The notes: a model not told the origin generated them from the sequence alone. Positions 303 through 15,108 are shown, numbered from the stretch's first letter. The stretch is DNA of 15,108 bases from Candidatus Nanohaloarchaea archaeon (GCA_046497485.1 JAWOFP010000019.1:1-15108); one strand, 5' to 3'. Made by a program: numbers and translations.

Positions 303-412
303 TATTTTACCACTCTATAAGGTAAAAAGGCCTCTAGAAACTTAAATACCTTATCCGAATTTGGTATCCTGCGACGGGTTTAAACCGATGTATTCATAAA
401 TAATATTCAGAG

Positions 413-775
413 ATGGTAGAAGGAGACGCCACGGCAACACTCGTATCTCTCATAACTTTAGCAGGCGCAACAGTCTTCGGATACTTCAACTCTCTCTTCG
501 AACCATTCACATTAGTGATGCTGACATATGGGATTGTAACTCTTCTAGGAGGCCTGATACACCAGTTGAACGGCGACTGGGGCATAGTAAATATTGTGAT
601 CGCGACATTCGGGGTTTTACTTATGTTTATTTGGATGATGATTGATATGATGGCATCAATGCAGATGCTTTCGACATCTCTTGAGACTTTCCTTAGAAGC
701 TTCTGGTACGGATTTTCAGGGATAATGATTCTAGGCCTGTCATACATAATTATGAAGTTCCAGATCGGGATTTGA
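413..775 (+). CDS. hypothetical integral membrane protein (about 4 TM segments)
   Basis: 120 aa, almost entirely hydrophobic segments. A TATA-like TTTAAA lies at about 379-384, about 30 nt upstream of the ATG. Confidence 0.7.
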   Translation: MVEGDATATLVSLITLAGATVFGYFNSLFEPFTLVMLTYGIVTLLGGLIHQLNGDWGIVNIVIATFGVLLMFIWMMIDMMASMQMLSTSLETFLRSFWYGFSGIMILGLSYIIMKFQIGI

Positions 776-818
776 AAAGATGTATTTTAAACAGTTTACG
801 CACAAATCTTCAATATAA

Positions 819-906
819 GTCGAGGTGGCAGAGTGGCTTAATGCGGTGGCTTGCTAAGCCATTGAGCCTTCAACGGCTCGCCCGGGTTCGAATCCCGGCC
901 TCGGCG
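819..906 (+). tRNA. tRNA-Ser(GCT), no intron, CCA not encoded
   Basis: Acceptor stem GTCGAGG/CCTCGGC, D-arm GCAGAGTGGCTTAATGC, anticodon stem GTGGC/GCCAT with loop TTGCTAA (GCT at 853-855), long variable arm GAGCC-TTCAAC-GGCTC, T-arm CCGGG-TTCGAAT-CCCGG, discriminator G906. TATA-like TTTTAAA at 785-791. Confidence 0.97.
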
Positions 907-944
907 CTTACCAATTTAAACTGCTGTTTCTAAATGTTAGGTAT

Positions 945-1367
945 ATGCCGATAACTGCGAGAGAGCTCATGGATAAGCCTGACTTCATTAATGTTGATGC
1001 CTCTGTAGAAGAGGTTGAGAAAGAGCTTTCAACTATTGAGAATACGTTAATTGTAAGGAAGGATGGTGAGGCTGTCGGCGAGATCCATGAAAGTTCTCTT
1101 TTGAAAGCATTTATTCCGGAAGATGAACTTGATGAAAACTCTGTTGTAGGGTTTCTAGGATTTTCTTTTGATCAAAGCTATGTCCCTGAGATAGCGGAAG
1201 ACTTGATGAACAAACATGATGTTTCTGTGACTCCGGATGAGGAGCTGGGTGATATCGCACTTGTAATGTTTAGGGAAGATGTCAGAGCAGTTCCAGTAAA
1301 GGAAGATGGAGAGGTTATCGGAGTGATACATGAAAATAAGGTTGTTGAAAAGGGAGAGGTGACATAA
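945..1367 (+). CDS. CBS domain pair protein
   Basis: Two CBS repeats: 'TARELM...INVDASVEEV...LIVRKDGEAVGEIHESSLL' and 'AEDLMNK...VTPDEELGDIALVMFREDVRAVPVKEDGEVIGVIHENKV'. Confidence 0.9.
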   Translation: MPITARELMDKPDFINVDASVEEVEKELSTIENTLIVRKDGEAVGEIHESSLLKAFIPEDELDENSVVGFLGFSFDQSYVPEIAEDLMNKHDVSVTPDEELGDIALVMFREDVRAVPVKEDGEVIGVIHENKVVEKGEVT

Positions 1368-1368
1368 T

Positions 1369-2532
1369 TTGGCCGCAGGTTTAGCAGCCCAGACAATGTT
1401 TGAGTTAGGCCTATTGCTGTTTCTATCAGTTGTAGTTGGAGAATTATTTGAGAGGTTTGGAATCGAATCGATGATCGGCTACATTACTACAGGCCTGGTT
1501 TTAGGCCCTTCAGTTCTTGGGATGATAGAGCCTGAATCTGTTAGAGGCTTTGCAACGATTGGAGCATCTCTAGTTCTTTTTCAGGCAGGTTTAAGAGAAG
1601 ACAACGTTGTAAATATTTTCAGACATCGACAGGGCATCCAGATGGGGTTAGGAATACTTGCAGGATCTTTTGCAGTAATTTTATCGGCACTAGTACTTTT
1701 TGGCGATAGTTTCTTGCCTTACACAAGCCTACAGGCCTTTGTTTTCATAGCACTAGGATATGCTTTAGTTGATATAGCTGTTCCATCAAAAATTATGCTT
1801 TCCAAAGGCGTTTTAAGAGATCCTACAGGCAAGTATGCGATTAAGTCCTCTGTAATCAATGTTACAGTAGGGCTTTTACTTGTTACAGCTCTTGTAATCC
1901 TAAGTTCTGCATCTGAAAGTTTATTACTGAATATTGGAGGTATTCTCGGATTTGCTCTTGTCTTCTACTTCCTACATGAGTTCATTCACAAAATTGATGA
2001 CTATGTTATAATGTTTGAAGAATCTGAGGCTCAGTTTGCGTTGACTTTTGCGCTATTACTAGGATTAAGTTATGCTACAGAAATTATAGGCCTTTCAACA
2101 GTGCTAGGTGCTTTCTTTGCAGGGATAATAGTTTCCAGAAGCGATTTCTCAGAGTCAAGGGCTTTCCAAGAAAAGATCAATGCTATAGGCCTCGGATTGT
2201 TTATCCCGATATTCTTTGCGTGGTTCGGACTAGGCCTAAATATATCTGTGATTATAGCCAATATTGAAGCAGCAGCATTCCTTTTTGGGCTGTCAACAGT
2301 TTCAAAGCTTGCAGTAGGTTACGGCATCTCAAAGATGCATGACATGGATCATCCATTAACAATCTCGGCGTCTCTGTTGAGTCTTGATATTGAAACCTTG
2401 GTGGTGCTCTTGATTGCTATAGATCTCGGAGTGCTTAGCTCTGAAATGCTTCAAATTTTCGCTCCATCTGTACTGCTATCAACTGCAACTATTGTAACGC
2501 TTTATGCAATCATAGATAGAAGAGAAGCCTAA
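1369..2532 (+). CDS. cation:proton antiporter (CPA2 / Kef-NapA type membrane domain)
   Basis: 387 aa with about 12 TM segments and family motifs 'IGYITTGLVLGPSVLG', 'LVLFQAGL', 'GLSTVLGAFFAGII', 'FIPIFFAWFGL'. The TTG start is preceded by SD GAGGTGA (1356-1362) and lies 1 nt after the CBS stop. Confidence 0.9.
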   Translation: MAAGLAAQTMFELGLLLFLSVVVGELFERFGIESMIGYITTGLVLGPSVLGMIEPESVRGFATIGASLVLFQAGLREDNVVNIFRHRQGIQMGLGILAGSFAVILSALVLFGDSFLPYTSLQAFVFIALGYALVDIAVPSKIMLSKGVLRDPTGKYAIKSSVINVTVGLLLVTALVILSSASESLLLNIGGILGFALVFYFLHEFIHKIDDYVIMFEESEAQFALTFALLLGLSYATEIIGLSTVLGAFFAGIIVSRSDFSESRAFQEKINAIGLGLFIPIFFAWFGLGLNISVIIANIEAAAFLFGLSTVSKLAVGYGISKMHDMDHPLTISASLLSLDIETLVVLLIAIDLGVLSSEMLQIFAPSVLLSTATIVTLYAIIDRREA

Positions 2533-2562
2533 AATCATAACATCGGCGTTAGGAATTATATT

Positions 2563-3540
2563 ATGGAAGAAAGTAGACTTCAGTCAGAAATAGAAGAAGT
2601 TCTTGGAAAAGAGTTCGACTGGAGAGAGATTGAAAAAGGCCTTAACACTATTTATGAGATATCCTCAGACTTAGAAAGGCTTATCCTGAAAGTTCACACT
2701 AATGAGAAGATGGAGATAGAAAGATTCAATGCTGAGCCTGAAATATATGAACTGATAGATCAGCATACTGAGGTCCCGTCTCCTGAAATTATTTACAGCG
2801 ATTTCAGTGAAGATGAACTTCCAGCTTTCTATATAATGGAGAAAATTGAGGGGGAAAATGCTGCCGAAGTTATAGAAGTTCTTCCTGCTGAAAAGGCCGA
2901 GAAATTATTCTATCAGTATGGAAAATATTTGGGAGAACTACATGAAAGTACTTCGTTTGAAGAACATGGTCTGATTTTCAAAAATGGTAAATTAGGAACT
3001 GAGAAGGGATTTAATTACTGGGAGGATTCCTTTAGAGACTTGATAAAGGAAAATATAGAATTTGTTAAATGTGCGTGGGATAGGCCTCCAGAATTCAGTA
3101 TTGAGATTAAAAATTTGGTAAAATATCTGCCTAATGCTGAGCCTGTTATTCTTCATCATGACAACCGGCTTGAAAATCTGATTTTGCAGGACGATAAAAT
3201 TGAAGGGTTCCTTGACTGGAGTTTTACTCGCGCCGGTCACTCCGAGTATGACTTAGTTCTTGCAGAATACTTGTTGATTGACTGGGATCTATCATTCAGG
3301 AAAATTGGTAATACTGAAGATTTGAGAAAGAAGCTTTTCCAAGGGTACGCTGAAATCACAGGTTTTAATCGGGACGATGATTTTGAAATTAGGAGAAGAA
3401 TTTATCGCTATTCTATCGTTATTTGGCTTATGGCAGGCCTTCCTAACTGGGGCCCGGAGAACCCTGAGAGGTATAGAGAGTTAGAGAAAGATTTAGAGTC
3501 TCGATTGCTTGAAATTGAGGAAAAACTTTCAGACCTTTGA
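2563..3540 (+). CDS. aminoglycoside phosphotransferase / choline kinase-like phosphotransferase
   Basis: Brenner-type motif 'LHHDNRLENLIL', Mg-binding 'GFLDWS', hinge 'YIMEKIEG', and 'LGELH'. Confidence 0.88.
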   Translation: MEESRLQSEIEEVLGKEFDWREIEKGLNTIYEISSDLERLILKVHTNEKMEIERFNAEPEIYELIDQHTEVPSPEIIYSDFSEDELPAFYIMEKIEGENAAEVIEVLPAEKAEKLFYQYGKYLGELHESTSFEEHGLIFKNGKLGTEKGFNYWEDSFRDLIKENIEFVKCAWDRPPEFSIEIKNLVKYLPNAEPVILHHDNRLENLILQDDKIEGFLDWSFTRAGHSEYDLVLAEYLLIDWDLSFRKIGNTEDLRKKLFQGYAEITGFNRDDDFEIRRRIYRYSIVIWLMAGLPNWGPENPERYRELEKDLESRLLEIEEKLSDL

Positions 3541-3575
3541 AAACGCATAAATACAGGCCTTGGTCAATCTAAGTT

Positions 3576-4259
3576 ATGGAAGCCATCTTTCTGAGTTTAG
3601 GCTTTGCTTTTCTGATAGGCCTAGTTCACTTTTTCGGGGAGGAGCTAGATGAATATCTTAATTCTAAACACTTGCTTTTGGCTTCTTTTTCTGCAGGTCT
3701 TACTGTGTCCTATTTCTTCCTAGCGATGCTTCCAGAAATGTCTAAGGCCTCTGTAAATCTTGAGTATGAGTTTTTGTTTGCTTTAGCAGGTTTCTCATTT
3801 TTCTACATTGTTGAGGAGCTGATTTATCAACGAGAATCAAATCTTTCAGAGGTTAAGAAAGAATTCAAGGAGCTTCATTCCGCTTTCATTTTCTCATACC
3901 ATTTTGCTATCGGATTTCTGATTTACTTTCTGATGGAGCAGGGACAGAGTCAGGCCTTACTATTCTATATCCCTGTTCTGGTTCACACAGCTGTTAACTC
4001 ATTGGCGATTAAGGAGATGCATGAAGAGATGCTGGACAAGCTCTGGATTAAGCTTTCTGCGTCTTTTTCAGCAGTCTTAGGCGCCATCACAGCTTATTTG
4101 GTTGATCCTTCGCAGTTTGTTTCATACTCTGTCTTTGGATTTATAGGAGGAATGTTTCTCTACATAGTTGTACACGATGCATTAGATCCTAAGAGAGAAA
4201 GGCCTATAGGTTTCATAATTGGCGCAACGATTTTTTCAATCATTGTGTTCTTGTTATAA
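3576..4259 (+). CDS. membrane protein, probable ZIP-like divalent metal transporter
   Basis: 227 aa with about 8 TM segments. ZIP-like 'SFSAGLTVSYFFLAMLPE', intramembrane His residues (HSAF, YHFAIG, VHTAVNS) and 'GGMFLYIVVHD'. Confidence 0.6.
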   Translation: MEAIFLSLGFAFLIGLVHFFGEELDEYLNSKHLLLASFSAGLTVSYFFLAMLPEMSKASVNLEYEFLFALAGFSFFYIVEELIYQRESNLSEVKKEFKELHSAFIFSYHFAIGFLIYFLMEQGQSQALLFYIPVLVHTAVNSLAIKEMHEEMLDKLWIKLSASFSAVLGAITAYLVDPSQFVSYSVFGFIGGMFLYIVVHDALDPKRERPIGFIIGATIFSIIVFLL

Positions 4260-4291
4260 CCTTATTAACTGAGAAAGTAATACAAAGTATT

Positions 4292-5164
4292 ATGGCATTC
4301 CTCTGTATAGATATAGGCGGTACTAACACATTGATAGGCCTTGGAAATGGAGATTTTGAGGAGAAAAAGAGGATTAAATCCAGAGAGTTTTTGTCTGATA
4401 TAGATGGTTGTATTCAGGGAGTTGTCGATAATGCCGGTTATTCAAAAGAGAATATTAATCAGGTAGCAGTGGCTGCGGCAGGACCTATGAATAGAGAAAA
4501 GGGCGTATTTTATCCTCCAAATTTGTCTGAGGATTCCGAGCTTGATGAAGTACAGTTAAGAAAACCAATGGAGGCGTTTGGAGAATTACATATAATAAAT
4601 GATTGCACGGCTGCAGTTAAAGGAGAATATGAATATGGTGCCTCTGCGGAAAATATGGTTTACATTACTATAAGTTCGGGCATAGGCCTTGGAGCAATAT
4701 TCAATGGAGAGATAATAGAGGGTGCTGATGGAAATTTCGGGGAGATAGGCCATATGAAAGTAAACGGAGACCTAGAATGCGGGTGTGGAAGAAAAGGGCA
4801 CTGGGAGGCGTATTCATCAGGAAATAGGTTGCCTGTAATGGCTAAGAACCTTTTTGACTTGGAGTATGAGGGCGCTATTGATCTTTTCCAGGACTACAAC
4901 TCCGGAAGTTCTGAAGCTGCAAAAGTAATTGAAAAAATGCAGGAGGTAAATGCTGAGGCCTTTGCAAATGTGATTAGCCTCTATAATCCTGAAAAAATTG
5001 TGTTTGGAGGGCCTGTGGCGTTAAATCATACTGAGATAGTGATAGATGAGGTAAGAGAGGAGATAGAGAGGAAAGCAGTGAATGAGATGCCGGATATTGT
5101 TCCGGCAGAGCTCAGTGATCAGTCCGTCTTACATGGCTTGAGGGCTCACTGTAACAAGAATTAG
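4292..5164 (+). CDS. ROK family sugar kinase (glucokinase-like)
   Basis: ATP-binding 'DIGGT', 'INDCTAA', 'TISSGIG', 'GEIGH', and Zn motif 'CGCGRKGHWEAYSSG'. Confidence 0.93.
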   Translation: MAFLCIDIGGTNTLIGLGNGDFEEKKRIKSREFLSDIDGCIQGVVDNAGYSKENINQVAVAAAGPMNREKGVFYPPNLSEDSELDEVQLRKPMEAFGELHIINDCTAAVKGEYEYGASAENMVYITISSGIGLGAIFNGEIIEGADGNFGEIGHMKVNGDLECGCGRKGHWEAYSSGNRLPVMAKNLFDLEYEGAIDLFQDYNSGSSEAAKVIEKMQEVNAEAFANVISLYNPEKIVFGGPVALNHTEIVIDEVREEIERKAVNEMPDIVPAELSDQSVLHGLRAHCNKN

Positions 5165-5613
5165 CTTTCTTTAACGTCTGCTACGTCGCCTAAAGTTGCT
5201 TTTCGGTCGTCTCCGGATTCAACACTGTGATCTGAGACTTCAGGATTAACATAGAGGGTTACTTCAAGTTCCTTTGAAAGCTTCTTGGCAAGCGACTTCT
5301 CAGGCTTCAAGTCCTCTCTCTCAATCTTCTTGATCAATGAGGCCTTCTCGTTTAGTGAGTCTGCTAGCTCGTTGATACTTAATTTTCTATCTTCTCTGGC
5401 TTCCTTCACTCTAGTCCCGTAATCGTTGGCTAGGACTTGAGTGTCTTTAGGCCTGTAGGTCTTCTTTTTCTTAGCCTTCTTAGTCTTCTTTTTCGGTTGC
5501 TCAACTTTCTCGCCCATGTCGCTGCATGAGTCGCAGACTTTTAGGGTGGCGCCTTCTATCTTGGTTTTCTGTAGTTTGTCAGAATCTTTTCCGCATAACT
5601 GGCATGATGGCAT
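5161..5613 (-). CDS. mbf1: archaeal multiprotein bridging factor aMBF1 (Zn ribbon + Cro/C1-type HTH)
   Basis: 'CQLCG...IEGATLKVCDSC' Zn ribbon, HTH 'VKEAREDRKLSINELADSLNEKASLIKKIE', C-terminal 'TLGD' motif. Confidence 0.93.
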   Translation of the reverse strand: MPSCQLCGKDSDKLQKTKIEGATLKVCDSCSDMGEKVEQPKKKTKKAKKKKTYRPKDTQVLANDYGTRVKEAREDRKLSINELADSLNEKASLIKKIEREDLKPEKSLAKKLSKELEVTLYVNPEVSDHSVESGDDRKATLGDVADVKES

Positions 5614-5720
5614 CTAAAGTTTTCACATCAAAATAGAGTTTAGTTTACAGAATTTACTTTTTGTGTTCATCTGGCTCTCTATCCAGTTTATGCTTTCCGA
5701 ATTAATTTAAAACCTGTTTT

Positions 5721-6239: not shown

Positions 6240-6283
6240 ATACTATAATTAGATTCATGGAGCTTTTTGAACCTGTCTTTTTG

Positions 6284-6299
6284 TTCGATTATATTCGAA
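6284..6299. promoter_or_regulatory. inverted repeat TTCGA-N6-TCGAA, candidate transcription-factor operator
   Basis: TTCGATTATATTCGAA (14/16 self-complementary) in the divergent ArsR/histone intergenic region, about 45 nt upstream of the ArsR start. Confidence 0.45.
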
Positions 6300-6371
6300 T
6301 CAAAACCAATTTTTTCTTCAAAATTGGCTTGTTGAATCCTCACGGATTGTTTTAACGGGTTTAACACCCGT

Positions 6372-6410
6372 ACCTATAAAAAAGAGGCAAGACAACTGTT
6401 AATTGGTGAA
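6372..6410 (+). promoter_or_regulatory. TATA box and SD of histone gene 1
   Basis: ACCTATAAAAA at 6372-6382 and GGTGA at 6405-6409, 7 nt before ATG 6417. The layout matches histone gene 2. Confidence 0.75.
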
Positions 6411-6416
6411 TTATCT

Positions 6417-6584
6417 ATGGTAGACGTACTAAAGAAGTCAGGCGTTCGTGACGCAGTAAGCGAATCAAACGTCGGAGCAGACTTCTACGAAGCTCTTGAT
6501 GAGCAGGTAAAAGAACTCATCTCAAGAGCCGAAGAAAGAGCTCACGACAACGGACGCAAGACTCTGAAGTCAAGAGACGTATAA
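6417..6584 (+). CDS. small histone-fold protein (DUF1931-like / face-to-face alpha3-type archaeal histone), paralog 1, 55 aa; not in ORF track
   Basis: Manual translation MVDVLKKSGVRDAVSESNVGADFYEALDEQVKELISRAEERAHDNGRKTLKSRDV. It has the histone-fold L2 'RKT' plus 'RD' clamp and ends immediately after RD (truncated alpha3). Own TATA and SD. Confidence 0.92.
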   Translation: MVDVLKKSGVRDAVSESNVGADFYEALDEQVKELISRAEERAHDNGRKTLKSRDV

Positions 6585-6607
6585 ATTCAACTTTATTTTG
6601 CAAGGGG

Positions 6608-6660
6608 AGGGACAAGAGGCCTGTGAATGGTCTCTTAAATCCCTTGTCACTCTTTATTCT
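6608..6660 (+). terminator. stem-loop plus T-rich tail downstream of histone gene 1 (terminator or 3'-UTR structure)
   Basis: AAGAGGCC (6614-6621) / loop TGTGAAT / GGTCTCTT (6629-6636) with one G-U pair, extended by AGGGA (6608-6612) / TCCCT (6640-6644), followed by TCTTTATTCT. Confidence 0.45.
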
Positions 6661-6730
6661 ATTTAACTTAATATGTTTCTGATTGAAAAATGCATTCTTT
6701 TAGGCCTGAAACCTGTCTTACAAGGCTCTA

Positions 6731-6770
6731 ACCTATAAAAACCAGTTAACCTCATTACAAGATAAGGTGA
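6731..6770 (+). promoter_or_regulatory. TATA box and SD of histone gene 2
   Basis: ACCTATAAAAA at 6731-6741 and AGGTGA at 6765-6770, 7 nt before ATG 6778. Confidence 0.75.
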
Positions 6771-6777
6771 AAAAATA

Positions 6778-6945
6778 ATGGCAGATGTACTAAAGAAGTC
6801 AGGAGTTCGTGAAGAAGCAGGAGATATGAATGTAGGAGGTAACTTCTACGAGAGACTTGATGAAAGAGTCAAGGACATGATCTCCAGAGCCAAGGATAGA
6901 GCTCAGGACAATGGACGAAAGACAATCAAAGCAAGAGACGCATAA
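6778..6945 (+). CDS. small histone-fold protein (DUF1931-like / face-to-face type), paralog 2, 55 aa; not in ORF track
   Basis: Manual translation MADVLKKSGVREEAGDMNVGGNFYERLDERVKDMISRAKDRAQDNGRKTIKARDA. 36/55 identical to paralog 1 with no gaps, with the RKT..RD histone signature. Confidence 0.92.
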   Translation: MADVLKKSGVREEAGDMNVGGNFYERLDERVKDMISRAKDRAQDNGRKTIKARDA

Positions 6946-6974
6946 AGGCCTTTTCCAGGCCTAAAAATAGTTTT

Positions 6975-7196
6975 TTACAGTTCTTCCTTTCTTCTTTCTT
7001 TTTCGTCAAACTTTTCTTCTAATAAGTTCAGTGATTCTCTAAGCTCTTCTACTGCGTCCATGCTCTCAATCGGCAGTCTTCCTAGATCTCCGCCGTTGAC
7101 TTCAATATAGAATTTTCCTTCCTTCTGAATAACCTCATAATTCATTACTTTGTACGGCCCGTCCTCAAAGCTGTAGATGCTCTCCATAACTATCAA
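6975..7196 (-). CDS. small acidic hypothetical protein with C-terminal coiled-coil-like helix
   Basis: 73-aa ORF with host-like acidic composition, filling the gap between histone 2 and tdk. The true start may be the second ATG (MESIY). Confidence 0.7.
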   Translation of the reverse strand: MIVMESIYSFEDGPYKVMNYEVIQKEGKFYIEVNGGDLGRLPIESMDAVEELRESLNLLEEKFDEKERRKEEL

Positions 7197-7239: not shown

Positions 7240-7815
7240 GTGAGCCCTAGAAACAGGCCTGAGGAAAACGGCTGGATTGAAGTCATAACAGGATGTATGT
7301 TCTCAGGTAAAACATCGGAGCTTCTTGAAAGAGTTAAGAGAGCCGAACTATCGGGTCATGATGTTAAACTATACAAGCCGGCTGTAGATGACCGTTATGG
7401 AGAAACTGAGATAGGAAGCCATAATGGAGAGACAAGGAAAGCTGAGGTGGTTGAGGATGTCTCGGAAATCAGGCCAGAAGCATATGTAATTGGAATAGAT
7501 GAAGCCAATTTTTTCGATAACGAACTTGCAGGTAAAGCCGAAGAATTAGCTGATGAAGGTCATAGAGTGATTATTTCAGGCCTGGACTCAACTTTTAGAG
7601 CTGAGCCTTTCGAACCTGTACCAGAACTAATGTCGAAGGCAGAATTCATCGATAAACTGAACGCAGTCTGTGTTAAATGCGGCAGCACAGCAAATAGAAC
7701 TCAGAGAATAGTTGATGGCAAACCAGCTCATGTAGACGATCCTACTGTTGTGGTTGGGGCTGACGAAAAATATGAGGCTCGCTGTCGTTCATGTTTTGAA
7801 ATTAGAACTGATTAA
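7240..7815 (+). CDS. tdk: thymidine kinase (type II)
   Basis: P-loop 'GCMFSGKTSEL', 'IDEANFF', 'SGLDSTFRAEPF', Zn sites 'CVKCG' and 'YEARCRSC'. Confidence 0.96.
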   Translation: MSPRNRPEENGWIEVITGCMFSGKTSELLERVKRAELSGHDVKLYKPAVDDRYGETEIGSHNGETRKAEVVEDVSEIRPEAYVIGIDEANFFDNELAGKAEELADEGHRVIISGLDSTFRAEPFEPVPELMSKAEFIDKLNAVCVKCGSTANRTQRIVDGKPAHVDDPTVVVGADEKYEARCRSCFEIRTD

Positions 7816-9070
7816 TTCTATCTAAAGTCTTATCTAAGGCTTTACTCGCTTCTTTCTCACTTTCGGCTTCTGCAATAACTCTTACTTTTGGAGAGCTGCC
7901 GGAAGGCCTTACAAGCACTTCCGCATCTTCTTCCTGGAACTTTACTCCATCAAGATCAGAAATAACTTCTACTTCTTCTTTCAAGTCCTCAATAACTTTC
8001 TCTTTGTCTTTTACTTCAATACTTTCTCTCTCAACATGATAATCTGGAATTCTATCAAGTCTTTCAGCTAGATTCAGTTTTGAAAGAATTAGAGCTGCCA
8101 AGATCCCTGAGTTGTAAGGAATAAAGTCTGTGAAAGAATAATGTCCATTTGGTTCCCCCGCAAGCTCCGCATCTATTTCAAGAGCTCTATCCATGACAAA
8201 AGGGTCTCCTACACGCGTATAATCGATTTCCCCAAACTCTTCCAAGGCCTTACTTGTATCTATTGAAGCAACTATTTTACCCTCTACTAGTTGGGCTAGA
8301 ATGCCGAAGATTTCATCACCTGTCAAAAACTTATCTTGATGATAAACTGTGATCCGGTCAGAGTCGAGATCAAATGCCAGGCCTAAATCAGCATCTTCTT
8401 TCTCTACTTTCTCCTTCAGAGGCTCCAAATTCTCAGGTTTAGGGTGGGGAGGGTCAATGTAAGGCCTTTCTTTGTCTGATATATCGATCACTTCATGGTT
8501 TTGAGATTCCAGCAACTCTGGCAGTATCCGTGCCTCTCCACCCATTGATTCAAATACGATCTTCTTTCCAGAGGCCTCGCCAAATTTTGAAGCAAACTCC
8601 AGTATTTCTTTCTTGTATTCTTCAATTAGATTATTCTGAGTTACTTCGCCAGACTGTGAAGTAAAGTTATTCTTTCTGAATAAATCTTGAACAGTGTAGA
8701 GATCCTCATTGACAAATCCATTGCCTTGTGGATACATGAACTTGAAACCATTGAAGTTCAGAGGCATGTGGGAAGAGGTTACCTGGACTGAAATGCTATT
8801 TTCTTTTTTTCCGCACCAGGCCGCATAGTCTGTCGGCCCAACACCTACATCAACTACATCGGTTCCAACAGAATTCAGGCCTTCAATTAAAGCAGTTTTT
8901 AGAGGCTCAGAAGACTCCTTATTATCTCTACAAACTACAATTTTTCCAGAATAATTTCTGGCGCTGAAAGTTCCTAAGGCCTTTCCAAGTCTTTCCGCAA
9001 ACTCTTCATCGATCTCTTCGGGATACTCTCCCCTGATATCGTATCTTTTGAATACTTTTTCAGGCCTCAA
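7802..9070 (-). CDS. phosphomannomutase/phosphoglucomutase (alpha-D-phosphohexomutase family)
   Basis: N-terminal 'FKRYDIRG', phosphoserine loop 'TSSHMP..NGFK', metal loop 'FDLDSDR', 'GEPNGH', 'VRPSGSSPKVRV'. Confidence 0.93.
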   Translation of the reverse strand: MRPEKVFKRYDIRGEYPEEIDEEFAERLGKALGTFSARNYSGKIVVCRDNKESSEPLKTALIEGLNSVGTDVVDVGVGPTDYAAWCGKKENSISVQVTSSHMPLNFNGFKFMYPQGNGFVNEDLYTVQDLFRKNNFTSQSGEVTQNNLIEEYKKEILEFASKFGEASGKKIVFESMGGEARILPELLESQNHEVIDISDKERPYIDPPHPKPENLEPLKEKVEKEDADLGLAFDLDSDRITVYHQDKFLTGDEIFGILAQLVEGKIVASIDTSKALEEFGEIDYTRVGDPFVMDRALEIDAELAGEPNGHYSFTDFIPYNSGILAALILSKLNLAERLDRIPDYHVERESIEVKDKEKVIEDLKEEVEVISDLDGVKFQEEDAEVLVRPSGSSPKVRVIAEAESEKEASKALDKTLDRINQF

Positions 9071-9554
9071 AATCCTTCACCTTTTCCAATATTTTTTCCA
9101 GGCCTTCTTCAGGCCTCTCAATATGAACTGAAGGAATACTTACTCTTTCAATTTCCTCTTTACTGTCGTCTACAAGCAAATCAATATCTACAGAATCCTT
9201 GGACTCTTCCTGAACCACAAATACTTCCTCAACTTTTTCGGATATCCCTGAGGCCTCCACCTTTGATCTCTGGAACTTTTCATGGCCTCGAGTAACTATA
9301 ACCAGTTCATGGTCTAATTTATCAAGTAAATCCATGTCATTGTAGAGGAACCGGCTTAAATCCTGCTCAAATACTTTCCAGATTCTCTCTTTCGGAATCC
9401 CACATAAATCTGCATGCATCTCTGGGTCGTACACTCCATACTCTATCGGCGCAGGATCCTCAACATGGTGAAGTCCTTCAACATGATTCTTGTAGTAGTC
9501 ATCGAAGCTATCCGTGTCAAAAAGCACTCTATCGAAATCTAGACCTATCCTCAC
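9060..9554 (-). CDS. HAD superfamily hydrolase (phosphatase-like)
   Basis: Motif I 'LDFDRVLFD', motif II 'VTRG', motif IV 'LVDDS'. The GTG start overlaps the upstream TGA (GTGA at 9551-9554). Confidence 0.82.
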   Translation of the reverse strand: MRIGLDFDRVLFDTDSFDDYYKNHVEGLHHVEDPAPIEYGVYDPEMHADLCGIPKERIWKVFEQDLSRFLYNDMDLLDKLDHELVIVTRGHEKFQRSKVEASGISEKVEEVFVVQEESKDSVDIDLLVDDSKEEIERVSIPSVHIERPEEGLEKILEKVKDFEA

Positions 9555-10804
9555 TTCTTTCTCACCTGATTTTGTTCAACATAGACTGTCTCTCCGCTCT
9601 CTATATTGTCTTTAACAACTATTCCGGGCCCAATCTTTGCGTCAGAGCCGATCTGAACTCCAGGCATTATGGAGACATTTACCCCGATATCTACATTGTC
9701 GCCTATTACTGCTCCCAGAAAACTTCTTCCAGAGTTCTTACTGTAATCTTTCCCAATTAATTCTGATTTAATTTCAGGCCTCTGCCCATTTTTTCTGAAT
9801 CCTCTGTTAGCTATAACTGTTTCAGCGCCGATATGAGTGTCTCTGCCGATTATAGAGTCGCCTATAAATCCTGAGTGTATGCTGGACTCTGGCTGCATCA
9901 CAGAATTCTTAATCTCAGTATTTGCACCGGCTGTAGAACCTTTTTCAAGCGATACATGATCTCTAACCAAGGCATTATTTCCTACTACCGTATTTTCCCC
10001 AATATAGGCCGGGCCTTTAATGACGGCGTTTTCAAATATTTTAGCGCCCTCCTCTACTATTACATTTCCTTTAATTTCTGCTGAGTCTGCTATTGAGACC
10101 TTTTCGGAAATAGTCTGCCCTCTTTTTTCCATAAGTTCCTCAACTACTGAGAATAGATCCCAAGGATATTTTATCGAATTGGTCTCTTCTTCTATCTCAA
10201 GTATTGAGGCAGGACTTTCTTCCATTTGCTTAGATAGAGCGTCCTCAAACTGATACTCCCATTCCTCAACTTCATCAAGATAATCAAAGAAAGACTCGTT
10301 CAGTAAATACATGCCTACAACTTTCTTGTTACTTGGAGCCTCGCTAGGATCCGGCTTTTCAATCATATCGACTGCTTTACCATCTTCAATATCAAGTATT
10401 CCATATTTTTCAGGCTCATCTGTCGGTGTAGAGACAAAAACTATCTCAGAGTCTTCCTTATCAGCTTTTTCAATCATAGGCCTGAAAAACTTCGAGGCAT
10501 TAGCTCGGTAAGGGGTAAGAACTAGAAAATCTCCGTCTAATAAATGCTCCGCTTGGCGCAAAGCATTACCCATTCCATCCGGTTTTTCTTGAACTACATA
10601 ATGGTCAGCGGAATCTATTTCGTTCTCAATCTGCCTGTCTGGTCCTTGGACAATAATAATTTCTTCAACGCCTGCTTCTCGCAGTTCTTCTATAGTATAC
10701 TCTATAATGGGCTTTCCTAGAATGTCTGTCAGGCCTTTATGCCGGTTCTCGCTTATTGGCTTGAATCTGCTGGATTCTCCGGCTGCCAGAATTACTGCTT
10801 TCAT
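9551..10804 (-). CDS. bifunctional sugar-1-phosphate nucleotidyltransferase/acetyltransferase (archaeal GlmU-like)
   Basis: 'MKAVILAAGESSRFKP...HKGL...GKPII', 'YGIL...EKP', left-handed beta-helix hexapeptides with 'HSGFIGDSIIG...GAETVIAN' and 'GAVIGDNVDIGVN'. Start moved from GTG 10813 to ATG 10804 because AGGTGG (10810-10815) is a well-placed SD. Confidence 0.88.
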   Translation of the reverse strand: MKAVILAAGESSRFKPISENRHKGLTDILGKPIIEYTIEELREAGVEEIIIVQGPDRQIENEIDSADHYVVQEKPDGMGNALRQAEHLLDGDFLVLTPYRANASKFFRPMIEKADKEDSEIVFVSTPTDEPEKYGILDIEDGKAVDMIEKPDPSEAPSNKKVVGMYLLNESFFDYLDEVEEWEYQFEDALSKQMEESPASILEIEEETNSIKYPWDLFSVVEELMEKRGQTISEKVSIADSAEIKGNVIVEEGAKIFENAVIKGPAYIGENTVVGNNALVRDHVSLEKGSTAGANTEIKNSVMQPESSIHSGFIGDSIIGRDTHIGAETVIANRGFRKNGQRPEIKSELIGKDYSKNSGRSFLGAVIGDNVDIGVNVSIMPGVQIGSDAKIGPGIVVKDNIESGETVYVEQNQVRKK

Positions 10805-10813
10805 TTTTTCCAC

Positions 10814-11899
10814 CTACTTGCTTATCTCGCTTAAATCGGTTCTCGCATCTGGTACAAACTTGACTCCTCTGATAGAGTTATTCATGTCGATGTAGCTTCG
10901 AGGACCGATAAATGACTCTTTGATGACTGAGCCGGACTTAACATCGCATTCTTCTCCAAATACTGCATTTTCAAGGTCTACAAAACTATCGATTATATTT
11001 TCCTCAAATAGAAGCGAGTCCTGGATATGACAGTTCTCTAACTGTGAGTCCGGGCCTACAGTCGAGTTCTCAATGACAGTGTTAGGCCCTACTACTGTAT
11101 CCTGGCATACAACGGTTTCTCCCTTGATTACAGAGCCTTTTTCAATTTTCACATCTTCTTGAATTTTCACATTTTCTCCTACTAAGGCCTTATCAGAGAT
11201 CTCTGCGTCCTCGCTTATATCTGGTTCTAACTCATTTTCTCTAAGTACTTGGTCGGCTTTCCATAGTTTCTTCGGGGATCCAATATCAATCCAGTAGTCT
11301 TCAATTAGTTTGAATCTGCAGTCTAGAGTTTCAATATTCTCATTAATTACGCGGGTCAGGCTTGACTTATCTGAGTCTTCTAGAAGATCGAATATTTCAG
11401 GTTTCAAAATATAGATCCCTGAATTTATCAGGCTATTGTCTGGGTCCTCAGGTTTTTCCTCTATGCTTACGATTTCATCGTTTTGAATGCTTAGGACTCC
11501 AAACTTCTCTGCCTTTTTATCATCGGTAGCAAGCATTGATAGATCTCCTTCATGGCTGTCAATTAGTTTGCCGATATCGTTTTCGGAGATAACTACATCG
11601 CTGTTTACAACTATGAAGTCTTCTTCGATGAAATCAACTGTTTTCAAGGCTTCTGCTGTCCCTGAAAGCTCCTCCTGCAGGACTATATTTACATCGTTTC
11701 TCTCCTCAAATAATTCTCTGAACATTTCCTCTCTATAGTTTACAATTACATATACTTCCGTTACTCCCTGAATCTTGAGTTTATCGATAGTCTGAGAAAT
11801 CAAGGGTTCTCCTTTCACCGGCATTAATGCGGTGGGCTTTGAATCAGAGAAAGGGAACAGAGATTCTTTTTTCTTGGCAGCAGGTATTACAGCCTTCAT
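10814..11899 (-). CDS. NDP-sugar pyrophosphorylase-like protein with LbH domain and degenerate nucleotide-binding loop
   Basis: 'MKAVIPAAKKKESLFP...KPTALMPV', 'GTAEAL', 'VVNSDV', 'FGVL...EEKP', 'INSGIY', 'YWIDIG', and hexapeptide repeats. The GxGxR/K signature is absent. Confidence 0.85.
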   Translation of the reverse strand: MKAVIPAAKKKESLFPFSDSKPTALMPVKGEPLISQTIDKLKIQGVTEVYVIVNYREEMFRELFEERNDVNIVLQEELSGTAEALKTVDFIEEDFIVVNSDVVISENDIGKLIDSHEGDLSMLATDDKKAEKFGVLSIQNDEIVSIEEKPEDPDNSLINSGIYILKPEIFDLLEDSDKSSLTRVINENIETLDCRFKLIEDYWIDIGSPKKLWKADQVLRENELEPDISEDAEISDKALVGENVKIQEDVKIEKGSVIKGETVVCQDTVVGPNTVIENSTVGPDSQLENCHIQDSLLFEENIIDSFVDLENAVFGEECDVKSGSVIKESFIGPRSYIDMNNSIRGVKFVPDARTDLSEISK

Positions 11900-13140
11900 A
11901 CATTACTTTTGGAGGCCTCAGATTCAAATACATTGTCCAGTACAAGCTCATCTACACGAGAGTTAGCCTTTTCGACTTCTTCAAACACGTCTCTGTTCTC
12001 GTTTGTCGCCATAATATCAAAGATTAGATTCATGTACTGATCAATATTTTCTTCCGACATGGAATTGTTTTCAAGGCCTGCAGCACACCTCACGGATGAT
12101 TCAAGCACTCTATAAAGCTGATCGTGAATAAGGTTAGGTGTCTCGATTTCTTCTCCTGTCTCCAGGTCGTAGAGGTTTTTCGAGAGCATATCTCCGAATA
12201 AGTCTCTCTCACCTTTTATCACAAAGAACCTGCATTCTTCGTCTAGGAGGCCTGATTCGTTTGAAATCTTGAAGTCGGAGCCTATCGGGTTGTGGTCTGT
12301 TATCTCTTTCATTTCCTCTGCTACTGCTCGAGCTCTAGGACTTACTCCGAGCCAGCTGCTGTTCAAAGCGATGTCCGCGTCTCCCGAAATTTCAGCTCGA
12401 CAAGTTCCTGTAGCGGTTAACTCATCTATTTTACTGGTCTTTCCGCCTCTAATAGTCATCAAACTTCCGCCATCTTTCTTGTTCGGCATATAAAGGCCTT
12501 TTTCTACATTTTCGATTTCCTCGGGCTCTACAAAATCCATTACAAAGCCTTCATGCGACATTTTGTCCAGGACTGAGCCGCCTTTTACCCCTGCACGGTC
12601 TATAGGGTTCAAAAGTTTTTCTATGCCTATAGTGCTTTCTCTAAATACTTCTATAGAATCAATATTTTTTCCTTCAAGGATCTGTAAGGCCTTCTTAACT
12701 ACTGGCGACTCCCTTTCTATAAAATCAACTGTAAATCTAACGTCGTTGTCCAGCATCAATTTTTTCTCTTTGATATGTTCTTCGCGGGTCATTGAAGGAG
12801 GTTTTTCGGCTAAATGGAAGAAATTATTTCTCAGTGAGCGGTAGATGTGATCTGCATGAGTCTGAGCAGGCCCAGCATCATAAATCAGTATTTTACAGTC
12901 TTCGCTATCCTCATCTATAGCCCTCTGATAGGCGTCTTCTATACTTCTCCATGAATCTATATCTAGGCCTTGAGCTGACGCAAACTTTTCAGCGTCCTCT
13001 AGTTTCTCAAAGTCTTTATCGCATACACCAATTAGCTCTACATTTACTTCTTCAAGATGGTTGTCCATTTCTACAAACTTCTCGAATCCGTACCTTCCGA
13101 AGCTTCCGAGGCCTATGTGAAATACTTTTACTGTTTCCAC
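11896..13140 (-). CDS. Gfo/Idh/MocA-like NAD(P)-dependent oxidoreductase
   Basis: Rossmann 'IGLGSFG', 'LAEKPP' motif and 'GGSVLDKMSH' (GGxxxDxxxH). The stop overlaps the next start (ATGA at 11896-11899). Confidence 0.78.
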   Translation of the reverse strand: METVKVFHIGLGSFGRYGFEKFVEMDNHLEEVNVELIGVCDKDFEKLEDAEKFASAQGLDIDSWRSIEDAYQRAIDEDSEDCKILIYDAGPAQTHADHIYRSLRNNFFHLAEKPPSMTREEHIKEKKLMLDNDVRFTVDFIERESPVVKKALQILEGKNIDSIEVFRESTIGIEKLLNPIDRAGVKGGSVLDKMSHEGFVMDFVEPEEIENVEKGLYMPNKKDGGSLMTIRGGKTSKIDELTATGTCRAEISGDADIALNSSWLGVSPRARAVAEEMKEITDHNPIGSDFKISNESGLLDEECRFFVIKGERDLFGDMLSKNLYDLETGEEIETPNLIHDQLYRVLESSVRCAAGLENNSMSEENIDQYMNLIFDIMATNENRDVFEEVEKANSRVDELVLDNVFESEASKSNV

Positions 13141-13210
13141 ATTCTGTTATTGGAAAGTCCTAATCAAAAAACCCTCAGTCTTAAATTGTTTTTGTTACTA
13201 AATAGTTAAT

Positions 13211-13681
13211 ATGGCTGGCGTAGACAAAGCATGGGTATATGATAGATTGACGAGAGAAGGAATGCTTCCCTCGGGCGTTGAAGAAGCAGAAAGAATGCTG
13301 GATGCCGAGCCAGATAATGATTATGATGGTGTATTACAGAGAGCTCATGAATTATTTAGGATAGATAGAAATGCAGAGAGCTCTGGTGCTGCAGAATTTA
13401 TCGCTGAAACAAGTTATTTATTAAGAGAAGCCGGAAGCCGGGCTGCAGAATCAGATACTTATGAGGCAGAACAGTGGAGAGAAGAAATCAATGAATATAT
13501 TCGCGATTACTTTGATTCGGGAGATATTATGGATGTACAGTATCCTCCGAGAGATGAAGAGTTTATTGATGAGACTGAGAGTCTTATGACTCGTTTGAAA
13601 AACAGCCACTTTATGGATGATGGAACTGAGGAAAGAACTCTCGAGTATCTCAAACAGAACTTCTTGGAGAATGGAATATAA
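13211..13681 (+). CDS. acidic hypothetical protein
   Basis: 156-aa ORF with TATA-like TTAAAT at 13181-13186, 30 nt upstream. No motif recognised. Confidence 0.7.
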   Translation: MAGVDKAWVYDRLTREGMLPSGVEEAERMLDAEPDNDYDGVLQRAHELFRIDRNAESSGAAEFIAETSYLLREAGSRAAESDTYEAEQWREEINEYIRDYFDSGDIMDVQYPPRDEEFIDETESLMTRLKNSHFMDDGTEERTLEYLKQNFLENGI

Positions 13682-13737
13682 CAAACCCTATTTAAAATTT
13701 AGTTGAATCATCATAGTTACGAGGTAATAATTTAGCA

Positions 13738-14256
13738 ATGGGAGATAGGCCAGCAAGCATTTACAGAGAGAAGCCGAATCAGCCTTACACACGGCAGTCT
13801 CAGAAGAAGAGCGATAACTTCATTAAGGGGGCGCCGGCTTCAAGAGTAACACAGTACCGCATGGGAGCAGACGATAAAGAATTCGATACAGCTGTCAAGC
13901 TAGTAGTCGAAACAGGATGCGGAATCAGAAGCGAAGCACTAGAATCTGGCCGAATCGCAGCAAATTCATACTTAAACAAAGAGCTTGATCCTGAAGAAGA
14001 ATACTTCTTAGAGATCAGACCTTACCCGCACCATGTTCTTCGTTACCACCCATTAGCTGGTATTGCACAGGCAGACCGTTACTATGAGGGAATGCGTAAG
14101 CCTTTCGGAAGACCTATAGGAAGAGCGGCGCTCGTCGACGACTATCAGACAATTTACAGGATAGAAGTCGATGAAGGAGATGTTCCAGAAGCCAGAAAAG
14201 CATTGGAACGAGCTACTCACAAGATGCCTGTCTCATGCAGAGTCAAGATGGAGTAA
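13738..14256 (+). CDS. rpl10e: 50S ribosomal protein uL16 (archaeal L10e)
   Basis: 'RPASIYR', 'YTR', 'IRSEALESGRIAAN', 'IRPYPHHVLR', 'ADRYYEGMRKPFGRPIGRAA', 'ALERATHKMP'. SD-like GAGGT at 13721-13725. Confidence 0.97.
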   Translation: MGDRPASIYREKPNQPYTRQSQKKSDNFIKGAPASRVTQYRMGADDKEFDTAVKLVVETGCGIRSEALESGRIAANSYLNKELDPEEEYFLEIRPYPHHVLRYHPLAGIAQADRYYEGMRKPFGRPIGRAALVDDYQTIYRIEVDEGDVPEARKALERATHKMPVSCRVKME

Positions 14257-14272
14257 GACTCGGTTTTTTATT

Positions 14273-14554
14273 CTAATCTCGGTCGTTCCGTCGACGTCTG
14301 ATATCTTTTGCTACTTCTTCATGTTCGTCAGCCCAGTCACTTCTTAGTTGATGTAATTTAAAAGACGCTGTTAGACTTCCTATGCCTAGCAATACCGAGA
14401 ACCCTCGAATTATTGAAGCATACTGAAATTCTTCTAGAAGTGTGCCTGTTAAACCAATATAAATTGCAGTTCCTCCTAAAGCAAAGGTTCCTGCAGTAAT
14501 CTTGTAAAGCGCTGAACCTTCCAAATATGTTGATAAATAATCTATTATTGCCAT
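14273..14554 (-). CDS. small hypothetical membrane protein (2 TM)
   Basis: 93 aa with two hydrophobic segments and a charged C-terminal tail, 14 nt downstream of the bPH-like gene. Confidence 0.6.
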   Translation of the reverse strand: MAIIDYLSTYLEGSALYKITAGTFALGGTAIYIGLTGTLLEEFQYASIIRGFSVLLGIGSLTASFKLHQLRSDWADEHEEVAKDIRRRRNDRD

Positions 14555-14568
14555 AACTGCTAATTAGT

Positions 14569-14964
14569 TTAGGTCCTTTTTGAAACTTCTTTTTCCAAGT
14601 TCTTAGGATTTTTTAGGTAATTTAATCTCATGTCTATGCCGCTGGTTCCCGCAGTTTTTATCTGCAAATACCCTGATTCAAAGTATCGGTCTACCATACT
14701 GACTCCGGTTGAAGTATGTGTTATATTTTCGTACGGGATTATACGATTCCGGATAATGCCAAATTTGAACTCCTTAATTACTCGTCGATCTGTCAAGTAG
14801 TAGCTAGTTCCTCTAACGTGAATTTCAAGTCCTAGAAGAATTAACAAGCCTATAACTGCAGGAGCAGTCAACACTCCTATTACGTAATATGCAAAAAGGC
14901 CTGACCGGCGTGCTGGAGAATACTGCGAAACTATAGATTCTCCATCCTGTAACGTAGTATACAT
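14569..14964 (-). CDS. membrane-anchored bacterial PH-domain (bPH_2/YdbS-like) protein
   Basis: TM segment followed by 'YYLTDRRVIKEFKFGII...IPYENI......SMVDRYFESGYLQIKTAG', the typical bPH_2 pattern. Confidence 0.75.
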   Translation of the reverse strand: MYTTLQDGESIVSQYSPARRSGLFAYYVIGVLTAPAVIGLLILLGLEIHVRGTSYYLTDRRVIKEFKFGIIRNRIIPYENITHTSTGVSMVDRYFESGYLQIKTAGTSGIDMRLNYLKNPKNLEKEVSKRT

Positions 14965-15047
14965 ATTATTGAGTTGATTTAGATCGTACTTAAAACATGC
15001 GGGGTTTTGAAAAATTCTTTTATTCTACAATTTTCAATAATTAACTT

Positions 15048-15108
15048 ATGGTAGTTTGGAAAGGAGAAGTTGAGAGAAAACACGGTGAAAAGGCCTACAA
15101 CTTAGATC
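15048..15108 (+). CDS. 5' fragment of a gene running off the window (MVVWKGEVERKHGEKAYNLD...)
   Basis: Open frame from ATG 15048 to the window end after an AT-rich promoter-like region. 'GEKAYNL' weakly recalls the GxKAxNL start of PEP synthase/PPDK N-terminal domains but is too short to call. Confidence 0.45.
   Translation, partial: MVVWKGEVERKHGEKAYNLD

What the first reader, a model, noticed from the sequence alone, without database searches (positions are those of the whole stretch)
328..15096. AGGCCT is a HIP1-like highly iterated palindrome (about 55 copies, roughly 25-fold over chance) in an archaeal genome
Seen: about 55 exact AGGCCT sites in 15.1 kb (about 1 per 275 bp), where base composition near 40% GC predicts about 2. 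GGCC in other contexts occurs about 21 times by my count, close to chance, so the excess is specific to the full hexamer. Sites fall in all three codon frames (xxA-GGC-CTx at 550 and 733; AGG-CCT at 3082; xAG-GCC-Txx at 1733), in intergenic DNA (328, 3555, 6617, 6702, 6946, 6957) and inside the 11-nt HAD/PMM gene overlap (9062). Amino-acid or codon usage therefore does not explain them. Established: prokaryotes usually avoid 6-bp palindromes because they are restriction targets (AGGCCT is the StuI site). The classic exception is cyanobacterial HIP1 (GCGATCGC), which has been linked to cognate methyltransferases and proposed methyl-directed repair. Inference: this lineage may have a genome-wide system (orphan MTase with biased repair, a chromatin or replication-organising protein site, or a self-marking/uptake signal) that creates or maintains AGGCCT. 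I know of no description of this motif, but I cannot search the literature.
Basis: partly seen in the sequence, partly recalled or inferred. Interest (0 to 1): 0.9.

Follow-up and report, generated by a model that had tools for sequence, protein, structure and literature searches.

The report
Hyper-abundant AGGCCT palindrome in nanohaloarchaea
This tiny salt-loving archaeon writes the six-letter palindrome AGGCCT almost everywhere its genes allow, even changing protein letters to fit it in, yet rarely puts two copies close together; close relatives have or lack the trait, which makes an unexplained kind of genome signature testable.

Summary
Confirmed: 55 sites in the window, 3,249 in the 0.97-Mb genome, 15-20 times chance and about 10 times a synonymous-codon shuffle, in all frames and spacers. 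This scan found the motif before on other DNA (51 earlier notes); I found no paper on it. Only 12 of 70 genomes of the phylum are enriched, all in one family, with on/off states inside genera. Tested here: (1) 65-78% of protein-permitted positions are filled, and Arg-Pro, Gly-Leu and [KEQ]-Ala-x peptides are inflated. (2) A second site within about 12 bp gains almost nothing; the effect fades by about 100 bp, pointing to a protein footprint or short repair tract. (3) A sister lineage is decaying by C-to-T change. (4) No DNA methyltransferase family tracks the trait; two relatives with a HaeIII/NgoPII-type system avoid AGGCCT. (5) A Tpt1/DarT-fold orphan protein occurs in 7 of 12 enriched and 0 of 38 other genomes, but is neither necessary nor sufficient. 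It works like cyanobacterial HIP1 but fails the methyltransferase criterion. Best reading: a dispensable sequence-specific DNA-binding factor; biased short-patch repair is a close rival. The factor is unidentified.

The parts
328..15096 (.). 55 AGGCCT palindromes, 3.6 per kb, in all three frames and in spacers
413..775 (+). 120-aa membrane ORF, no Pfam; sites 550 and 733 (xxA-GGC-CTx)
1369..2532 (+). Na+/H+ exchanger family gene; 6 sites
2563..3540 (+). APH phosphotransferase family gene; 3 sites, including AGG-CCT at 3082
4292..5164 (+). ROK family kinase gene; 3 sites
6946..6962 (.). two sites 11 bp apart in a spacer; a rare close pair (also 9100/9111)
7802..9070 (-). phosphoglucomutase/phosphomannomutase gene; 8 sites in all frames
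9062..9067 (.). site inside the 11-nt overlap (9060-9070) of the PMM gene and the adjacent ORF 9060-9554
9551..11899 (-). two nucleotidyltransferase/hexapeptide genes; 4 sites
11896..13140 (-). GFO/IDH/MocA oxidoreductase gene; 7 sites
13115..14896 (.). longest site-free stretch of the window (about 1.8 kb), containing the ribosomal L10e gene (13738-14256)

Best explanation
A dispensable, sequence-specific, probably two-fold-symmetric DNA-binding factor that is not a methyltransferase of the tested families reads AGGCCT. Each occupied site gives a small, position-independent benefit (chromatin packaging or protection), so sites accumulate until mutation and protein constraint balance it. One site per protein footprint is enough, so a close second copy adds little. 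When the factor is lost, sites decay by C-to-T change. SHOWN: saturation of permitted positions, proteome imprint, short-range saturation, conservation with turnover, graded half-site preference, decay in a sister lineage, no methyltransferase tracking. INFERRED: that a protein binds, that it is dimeric, and that the force is selection rather than repair bias. The shared core (a protein reads the hexamer and acts within about 100 bp) I put near 0.8; this version of it near 0.36.
For: Filled fraction of protein-permitted positions: G000 78/65/65% by frame, G034 52/48/53%, G004 33/18/21%, G024 5.5/3.6/3.2%. With five letters in place the sixth is chosen 83-87% of the time against 15-20% elsewhere. 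For neighbouring permitted positions in G000 the odds of a first site stay 1.1-1.7, but the odds of a second fall to 0.11 at 6-12 bp, 0.39 at 12-20, about 1 at 20-45 and 2.3 beyond 130 bp; G034 shows 0.10 and 0.43 in the first two bins. Pairs under 60 bp: 213 vs 359 +/- 14 (G000) and 96 vs 145 +/- 10 (G034), below all 100 constrained resamplings. GC-rich inverted hexamer pairs show only 0.77-0.95. In G034, AGGCC-N is 3.3-5.3x and AGGCCT 9.7x, roughly multiplicative half-sites. Sites are conserved 67-75% against 23-26% for control hexamers in G000 comparisons.
Against: No such protein was found: 7 of 57 subtraction candidates plus RadC were tested and none matched the trait fully. The trait differs among close relatives (2 of 6 genomes in one genus; G003 vs G004; L417 vs L418), which is odd for a useful chromatin protein. 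No helical or kilobase periodicity was seen. Other palindromes are also low at 6-10 bp (0.42 on 10 pairs), so part of the shortest-range dip may be general. Every pattern here is also compatible with biased repair.
Confidence: 0.36

Rival explanations
1. Molecular drive: a site-specific repair or gene-conversion enzyme resolves mismatches toward AGGCCT over a short tract (about 15-100 bp). The sites have no function, and an existing neighbour blocks creation of a new one.
For: No position preference around starts or stops. 75% filled even in the most conserved genes. Permitted positions nearly double (3,996 in G000 vs 2,077 in G024). Only 361 of 1,379 G000 sites are shared with G034. The trait comes and goes among close relatives. 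The saturation recovers gradually rather than as a step.
Against: No one-off variant is depleted (O/E 0.94-2.14 under the masked order-2 model), so no Vsr-type signature. Four-fold-site divergence is flat with distance from shared sites (0.47-0.52 for L417 vs G000). No Vsr, MutS, MutL or NucS motif hit in a crude regex scan (weak evidence). No enzyme was found.
Confidence: 0.3
2. The reader comes from the haloarchaeal host (an enzyme or binding protein that enters the symbiont, or a host defence that the sites titrate), so the trait follows the host and not symbiont genes.
For: No symbiont gene tracks the trait fully, and the trait is patchy inside genera. Transfer of a methyltransferase between symbiont and host has been proposed, in the opposite direction (PMC11001535, passages). 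GGCC is under selection in Haloquadratum and its plasmids (PMC11431627, passages).
Against: Hosts of these genomes are unknown here. None of 80 rpoA' loci of other archaea, many haloarchaeal, is enriched (max O/E 2.06). Known host GGCC systems cause avoidance.
Confidence: 0.12
3. A DNA uptake or self-recognition signal like DUS/USS, amplified by biased uptake and recombination.
For: The proteome imprint matches that described for uptake sequences (PMC2817400, passages). Some genes look exchanged between enriched lineages (TrpRS 89.6% to G034 against a 62% median).
Against: A 6-bp palindrome, unlike the 9-10-bp non-palindromic USS/DUS. Saturation acts at tens of bases, not at fragment scale. 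Identity outliers toward non-enriched G024 (37) outnumber those toward G034 (20). No ComEC, ComEA or DprA regex hit (weak).
Confidence: 0.1
4. The 146-aa Tpt1/DarT-fold orphan (G000:C17:11966-12406, outside the window) ADP-ribosylates DNA at or near AGGCCT and is the mark-maker.
For: Found in 7 of 50 family genomes, all among the 12 enriched and 0 of 38 others; 5 of 10 vs 0 of 37 after removing the three genomes used to select it (Fisher p 1.6e-4; clade-only p 0.0075; kin not independent). Absent from the assembled syntenic locus of decaying G004 and present in sister G003. Model pLDDT 86; closest folds Tpt1 (Z 10.1, rmsd 2.6, 104 aligned) and DarT (Z 8.6, rmsd 3.2, 128 aligned).
Against: Not found in single-contig G005 and G010 (4.1 per kb) by protein, HMM or codon pattern. 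Intact on contigs with few sites: L418 4 of 24, L423 4 of 33, L419 0 of 6, L420 2 of 15. Picked from 57 candidates. No activity or specificity was shown.
Confidence: 0.06
5. An orphan DNA methyltransferase with methyl-directed repair (Elhai model).
For: G000 has one m5C methyltransferase. The model explains alternate HIPs in cyanobacteria (PMC4390886).
Against: PF00145 in 0 of the 9 other enriched genomes searched, including four single-contig ones. PF01555 strong hit only in G022 among the 10 enriched genomes searched. PF02086 in 0 of 5. PF02384 strong in 2 of 5. G024 and G020 carry a HaeIII-like methylase with an NgoPII-family nuclease and have 97 and 73 sites.
Confidence: 0.05
6. An assembly, library or compositional artefact.
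For: None found.
Against: 12 separately assembled genomes. Intact ORFs across sites. Contigs of two studies cover the window, and none of the 15 joints shown (of 34) falls inside a site. Amino-acid imprint.
Confidence: 0.01

Closest known systems
HIP1 (GCGATCGC) and alternate HIPs of cyanobacteria (Elhai 2015, PMC4390886; Xu et al. 2018, PMC5861425)
   Same: GC-rich palindrome over-represented genome-wide at 15-fold or more, in all frames and non-coding DNA, conserved above control words, patchy across relatives, function unknown.
   Different: Archaeal; 6 bp; 2-4.8 per kb; no methyltransferase tracks it; no kilobase periodicity seen in one complete genome with a simple test; short-range saturation measured here (not seen in the passages I read).
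CAGGCCTG of Synechococcus sp. PCC 6312 (Xu et al. 2018, PMC5861425)
   Same: Contains the same AGGCCT core; reported O/E 14.72 in a HIP1-poor genome.
   Different: Octamer at 0.37 per kb in one cyanobacterium; here the flanks are free and the density is 5-13 times higher.
DNA uptake sequences USS/DUS of Pasteurellaceae and Neisseria (PMC2817400)
   Same: Motif accumulation inflates the peptides it can encode.
   Different: Those are 9-10 bp and non-palindromic with known uptake machinery; here the motif is a 6-bp palindrome and no uptake genes were recognised.
HaeIII/NgoPII-type type II restriction-modification (GGCC specificity of both is recalled, not from a call)
   Same: Overlaps the core of the motif; present in relatives G024 and G020.
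   Different: Associated with avoidance (GGCC O/E 0.41 in G024), the opposite outcome.
Tpt1/KptA and DarT nucleic-acid ADP-ribosyltransferases (for the orphan lead protein only)
   Same: Fold; invariant His7 near the N-terminus.
   Different: No Pfam or PADLOC match; single 146-aa domain; no DarG or NADAR family hit among 10 neighbours scanned.

Membership tests
HIP1 / alternate HIPs | GC-rich palindrome over-represented about 15-fold or more genome-wide | tested here: met
   3,249 vs 150-210 under masked models
HIP1 / alternate HIPs | Enriched in all three frames and in non-coding DNA | tested here: met
HIP1 / alternate HIPs | Sites conserved between genomes above control words | tested here: met
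   67-75% vs 23-26% in three G000 comparisons with enriched relatives; 71% vs 43% on 7 sites for G022/G034
HIP1 / alternate HIPs | One-off variants tolerated mainly at the outer positions | tested here: met
   G034 AGGCC-N 3.3-5.3x; G000 1.2-2.0x
HIP1 / alternate HIPs | Cognate DNA methyltransferase present in enriched genomes | tested here: not met
   G061 and G065 were not searched; the specificity of G000's own m5C enzyme is unknown
HIP1 / alternate HIPs | 10-90 kb periodicity along the chromosome | tested here: inconclusive
   Fourier test on G034 only: top power 6.8, equal to the chance maximum; not Xu's method
HIP1 proper | Sequence GCGATCGC in a cyanobacterium | tested here: not met
   motif is AGGCCT and CGATCG O/E is 0.92; archaeal genes
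DUS/USS uptake sequences | 9-10 bp non-palindromic core | tested here: not met
   6-bp palindrome with unbiased flanks
DUS/USS uptake sequences | Encodable peptides enriched in the proteome | tested here: met
   RP 1.59, GL 1.42, [KEQ]A[FLSYCW] 1.75 vs 0.82, 0.98, 1.01 in G024
DUS/USS uptake sequences | Competence machinery with a sequence-specific receptor | tested here: inconclusive
   recalled regex motifs only, no hit; no profile search
DUS/USS uptake sequences | Biased uptake of motif-bearing DNA | not testable with these tools
   needs culture
Type II restriction target | Site avoided in the genome | tested here: not met
   top enriched hexamer
DarTG (orphan lead protein) | ADP-ribosyltransferase fold | tested here: met
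   Z 8.6-10.1 to Tpt1 and DarT; Foldseek E 7.1e-4 to Tpt1
DarTG (orphan lead protein) | Adjacent DarG or NADAR antitoxin | tested here: not met
   10 neighbours from five loci scanned, none hit such a family; one had no family at all
DarTG (orphan lead protein) | Sequence-specific DNA ADP-ribosylation | not testable with these tools
   needs an assay
DNA phosphorothioation (Dnd) | dndE gene present | tested here: inconclusive
   0 of 5 enriched genomes, but the control rang nowhere

The most novel reading that the evidence does not exclude
Some nanohaloarchaea carry a methylation-independent system, possibly mobile or supplied by the host, in which a still unknown protein (at the boldest, a DNA ADP-ribosyltransferase) marks or coats the chromosome at AGGCCT about every 300 bp and has rewritten hundreds of amino acids to do so. 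It would be a new kind of archaeal chromatin or self-marking code, switchable between sister species.
Probability: 0.25. Interest if true: 0.9.

Novelty: new variant of a known kind. Interest (0 to 1): 0.72.

Why it matters
Why genomes hoard a restriction-type palindrome has been open since HIP1 was described. Here the trait is denser than the roughly one-per-kb HIP density Elhai describes, lacks the methylases invoked for cyanobacteria, and exists as on, decaying, off and avoided states among close relatives with 1-Mb genomes. That is a natural experiment small enough for gene subtraction and pull-downs. The measured 15-100 bp saturation sets a physical scale that any mechanism must explain, and the same test can be run on HIP1.

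Tried and rejected
Candidate genes rejected as trackers of the trait: DnaG-like primase (39 of 61 genomes); 67-aa winged-helix protein (31 of 61); Cdc6 paralogue (strong in 5 of 5, including both non-enriched); L051:12404 ORF (missing in G005); L170:2221 ORF (present in non-enriched G023); class I SAM methyltransferase (17 of 50); RadC (43 of 50). 50 of the 57 candidates were not tested one by one, among them the McrB/McrC-like pair, an HD protein, Ogt and pilin-like genes. 208 G034 genes without a match in G000 or G024 were listed only.

Patterns not found: Vsr-type depletion; lower divergence near sites; helical or kilobase periodicity; preference for starts or stops.

This shows nothing about nanohaloarchaeal viruses. 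A viral scan with the window's PMM found nothing.

Reads: no RNA holder listed; only contigs could be laid.

The orphan protein gave no sequence match to solved structures and mostly unnamed Atlas clusters. No complex prediction was run.

Limits: G004 was examined in part only (21 contigs, 679,989 of about 0.8 Mb), and the syntenic loci of G005 and G010 were not read. Gene calls come from my own simple caller (1,114 genes; some starts truncated, nothing under 50 codons).
Full report
OBSERVATION. The window is contig C8 of genome G000 (967,558 bases, 66 contigs). It holds 55 AGGCCT sites against 3.66 expected from dinucleotide shuffles and 2.28 from base composition. The genome holds 3,249, on every contig; AGGCCT is the top hexamer and its flanks are unbiased. 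With the motif masked, Markov models expect 150-210. Genome-wide synonymous shuffles give about a tenth of the observed count in each frame; per-gene shuffles, which keep motif-inflated codons, give about a seventh; spacers carry 3.8 per kb. The organism is a nanohaloarchaeon by inference: acidic proteome (D+E 19%), genome near 1 Mb, and the best-matching RNA polymerase A' record with a family name is a Ca. Asbonarchaeaceae one at 63%.

DISTRIBUTION. Of 70 genomes in the phylum, 12 carry 2.0-4.8 sites per kb, all in the window's family: 4 of 5 in its genus, 3 of 3 in g7, 3 of 3 in g19 and 2 of 6 in g2. G004 is intermediate (0.95); the other 57 are at or below 0.69 (sizes of other genomes are rounded). 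A one-gene tree (rpoA', 33 rows; five enriched genomes not included) puts the seven enriched genomes tested and G004 in a 12-row group with support 94/90, mixed with four non-enriched ones. One gene cannot tell one gain with losses from several gains. None of 80 rpoA' loci (other archaea, and a few non-enriched relatives) is enriched.

STRENGTH AND PROTEOME IMPRINT. Where the protein allows the motif by synonymous choice, G000 uses it 78, 65 and 65% of the time by frame; G024 uses it 3-6%. Arg-Pro, Gly-Leu and [KEQ]-Ala-[FLSYCW] are 1.59, 1.42 and 1.75 times expectation in G000 and 0.82, 0.98 and 1.01 in G024. In 498 orthologue pairs, 1,054 permitted positions exist only in G000 and 368 only in G024. 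So the motif has driven amino-acid change, as reported for uptake sequences (PMC2817400). Against a neutral fill of about 5% (my estimate), isolated sites are favoured by about e^4. The most conserved genes are still 75% filled; genes without a G024 match are 57% filled. tRNAs hold 2 sites in 2,243 bases.

TURNOVER AND DECAY. Sites are kept above control hexamers between close enriched relatives (67-75% vs 23-26%), but only 361 of 1,379 G000 sites recur at the same place in G034. No single position matters. G004, sister of enriched G003 on short branches, has a uniform 0.94 per kb, keeps the peptide excess (1.28, 1.26, 1.42), and in the A-GGN-CT context shows GGT twice as often as GGA, against half as often in G024. 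That is decay by C-to-T change from a higher state. Caveat: G004 has also lost several core genes at syntenic loci, so relaxed selection could explain its decay. Metagenome contigs close to G000 show both states (L417 24 of 42, L418 4 of 24).

SHORT-RANGE SATURATION. Close pairs are rare: 0.14 of chance under 10 bp, 0.25 at 10-20 and 0.41 at 20-30. This holds when only protein-permitted positions are resampled (213 vs 359 +/- 14 pairs under 60 bp; G034 96 vs 145 +/- 10; G004 17 vs 20, not significant) and in non-coding DNA (6, 11, 24 vs 13.5, 20.7, 35.1). The first site of a close pair is favoured as usual; the second is near neutral at 6-12 bp and recovers by about 100 bp in G000 and about 50 bp in G034. 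General avoidance of inverted repeats is much weaker. Specificity differs by lineage: G034 favours half-sites multiplicatively, while G000 is stricter. These are the marks of a protein with a footprint of tens of bases or of a short repair tract. They argue against processes working at kilobase scale. Two look-ups of earlier scan notes for spacing or ADP-ribosyltransferase returned nothing.

METHYLTRANSFERASES. G000 has one m5C enzyme beside a McrB-like ATPase; none of the nine other enriched genomes searched matches that family. N4/N6 families do not track the trait either. Single-contig G034 has only a weak hit at 553 kb, in a gene I take to be a tRNA methylase (inference: weak hits of this kind recur in most relatives). 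Conversely G024 has a methylase matching M.HaeIII over its whole length (E 1.8e-95) next to an NgoPII-family nuclease. G020 has the same pair (87% and 75% identity). They hold 97 and 73 sites, and G024 avoids GGCC (0.41). In this family a GGCC-type system goes with avoidance.

SEARCH FOR THE FACTOR. Genes in G000 and G034 but not G024 gave 57 candidates. The one striking tracker is a 146-aa orphan: 7 of 50 family genomes, all enriched, deleted at the syntenic locus in G004, a narrow family (28 and 7 hits), with a Tpt1/DarT-like fold. It fails twice: it is not found in G005 and G010, and it is intact on four of eight metagenome contigs with few sites, two of which overlap. It remains a lead or a clade marker. 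The other tested genes were widespread or did not track.

MECHANISM. Best: selection for occupancy by a dispensable sequence-specific DNA-binding protein (0.36). Close rival: short-tract biased repair or conversion (0.30). Then a host-supplied factor (0.12), an uptake signal (0.10), ADP-ribosyl marking (0.06) and an orphan methylase (0.05). Sequence data at equilibrium cannot separate selection from drive.

COMPARISON AND NOVELTY. It works like the cyanobacterial HIPs, meeting four tested features, but fails the methyltransferase feature and is not HIP1. A cyanobacterial octamer with the same core, CAGGCCTG, is on record (PMC5861425). Searches for AGGCCT with palindrome/overrepresented (0 papers), AGGCCT with archaea (27 listed, none on this by title or abstract start), nanohaloarchaea with methylation/motif (12), highly iterated palindrome with archaea (5), nanohaloarchaea with ADP-ribosyl (1) and DPANN/palindrome/overrepresented/hexamer (15 of 156 listed) showed no description. 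The library is open-access only. This scan noted the motif before (51 notes).

PAPERS SEEN. PMC4390886: part 1 of 8 and passages. PMC5861425: abstract, section 25 and passages. PMC11001535, PMC10266531 (it describes a methylome for SVXNc only, motif GDGCHC), PMC11431627 and PMC2817400: passages. All others: search listings. No supplements were read; motif tables in those of PMC5861425 and the two nanohaloarchaeal papers could bear on novelty. StuI as the enzyme for AGGCCT and the GGCC specificity of HaeIII and NgoPII are recalled.

Noticed in passing
L003 (G000:C53) 98-4274: m5C methyltransferase divergent from a McrB-like AAA gene and a nuclease-like partner; the latter two are 71-76% identical to G034, which has no methylase beside them.
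   Followed up: partly
L005:1456-3375 (G024) and L004 (G020): HaeIII-like methylase plus NgoPII-family nuclease, 87% and 75% identical between two genera, suggesting transfer.
   Followed up: yes
G000 and G024 genome-wide: ACGT is the most avoided tetramer (O/E 0.49 and 0.32); no cognate enzyme was identified.
   Followed up: no
G000:C10:15174-16328: Tryptophanyl-tRNA synthetase-like gene (name by inspection) 89.6% identical to G034 against a 62% median, and 34% to G024 and G004: likely recent transfer.
   Followed up: no
G004 syntenic loci: Genes resembling CTP synthase, DnaG, RadC and thymidine kinase are missing at assembled loci; DnaG is also not found in single-contig G024 and G018.
   Followed up: partly
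G034:C1:388200-400600 (L170-L171): About 12 kb with a single site, holding what look like heavy-metal transport and regulator genes; probably recently acquired.
   Followed up: no
L056:16420-17094: A second orphan with an ADP-ribosyltransferase-like YH-x-T start, beside a RamC_N gene; no Pfam or PADLOC hit.
   Followed up: partly
L295, L340, L364: Three related low-GC (36-37%) viral contigs with 8-13 clustered AGGCCT sites in 6-8 kb; proteome not acidic.
   Followed up: no
window 2091 and 3438: Contigs of run X3 carry C-to-T variants inside sites 2088 and 3435.
   Followed up: no
window 6417-7187: Three short ORFs (55, 55 and 70 codons) called by my script and not annotated.
   Followed up: no
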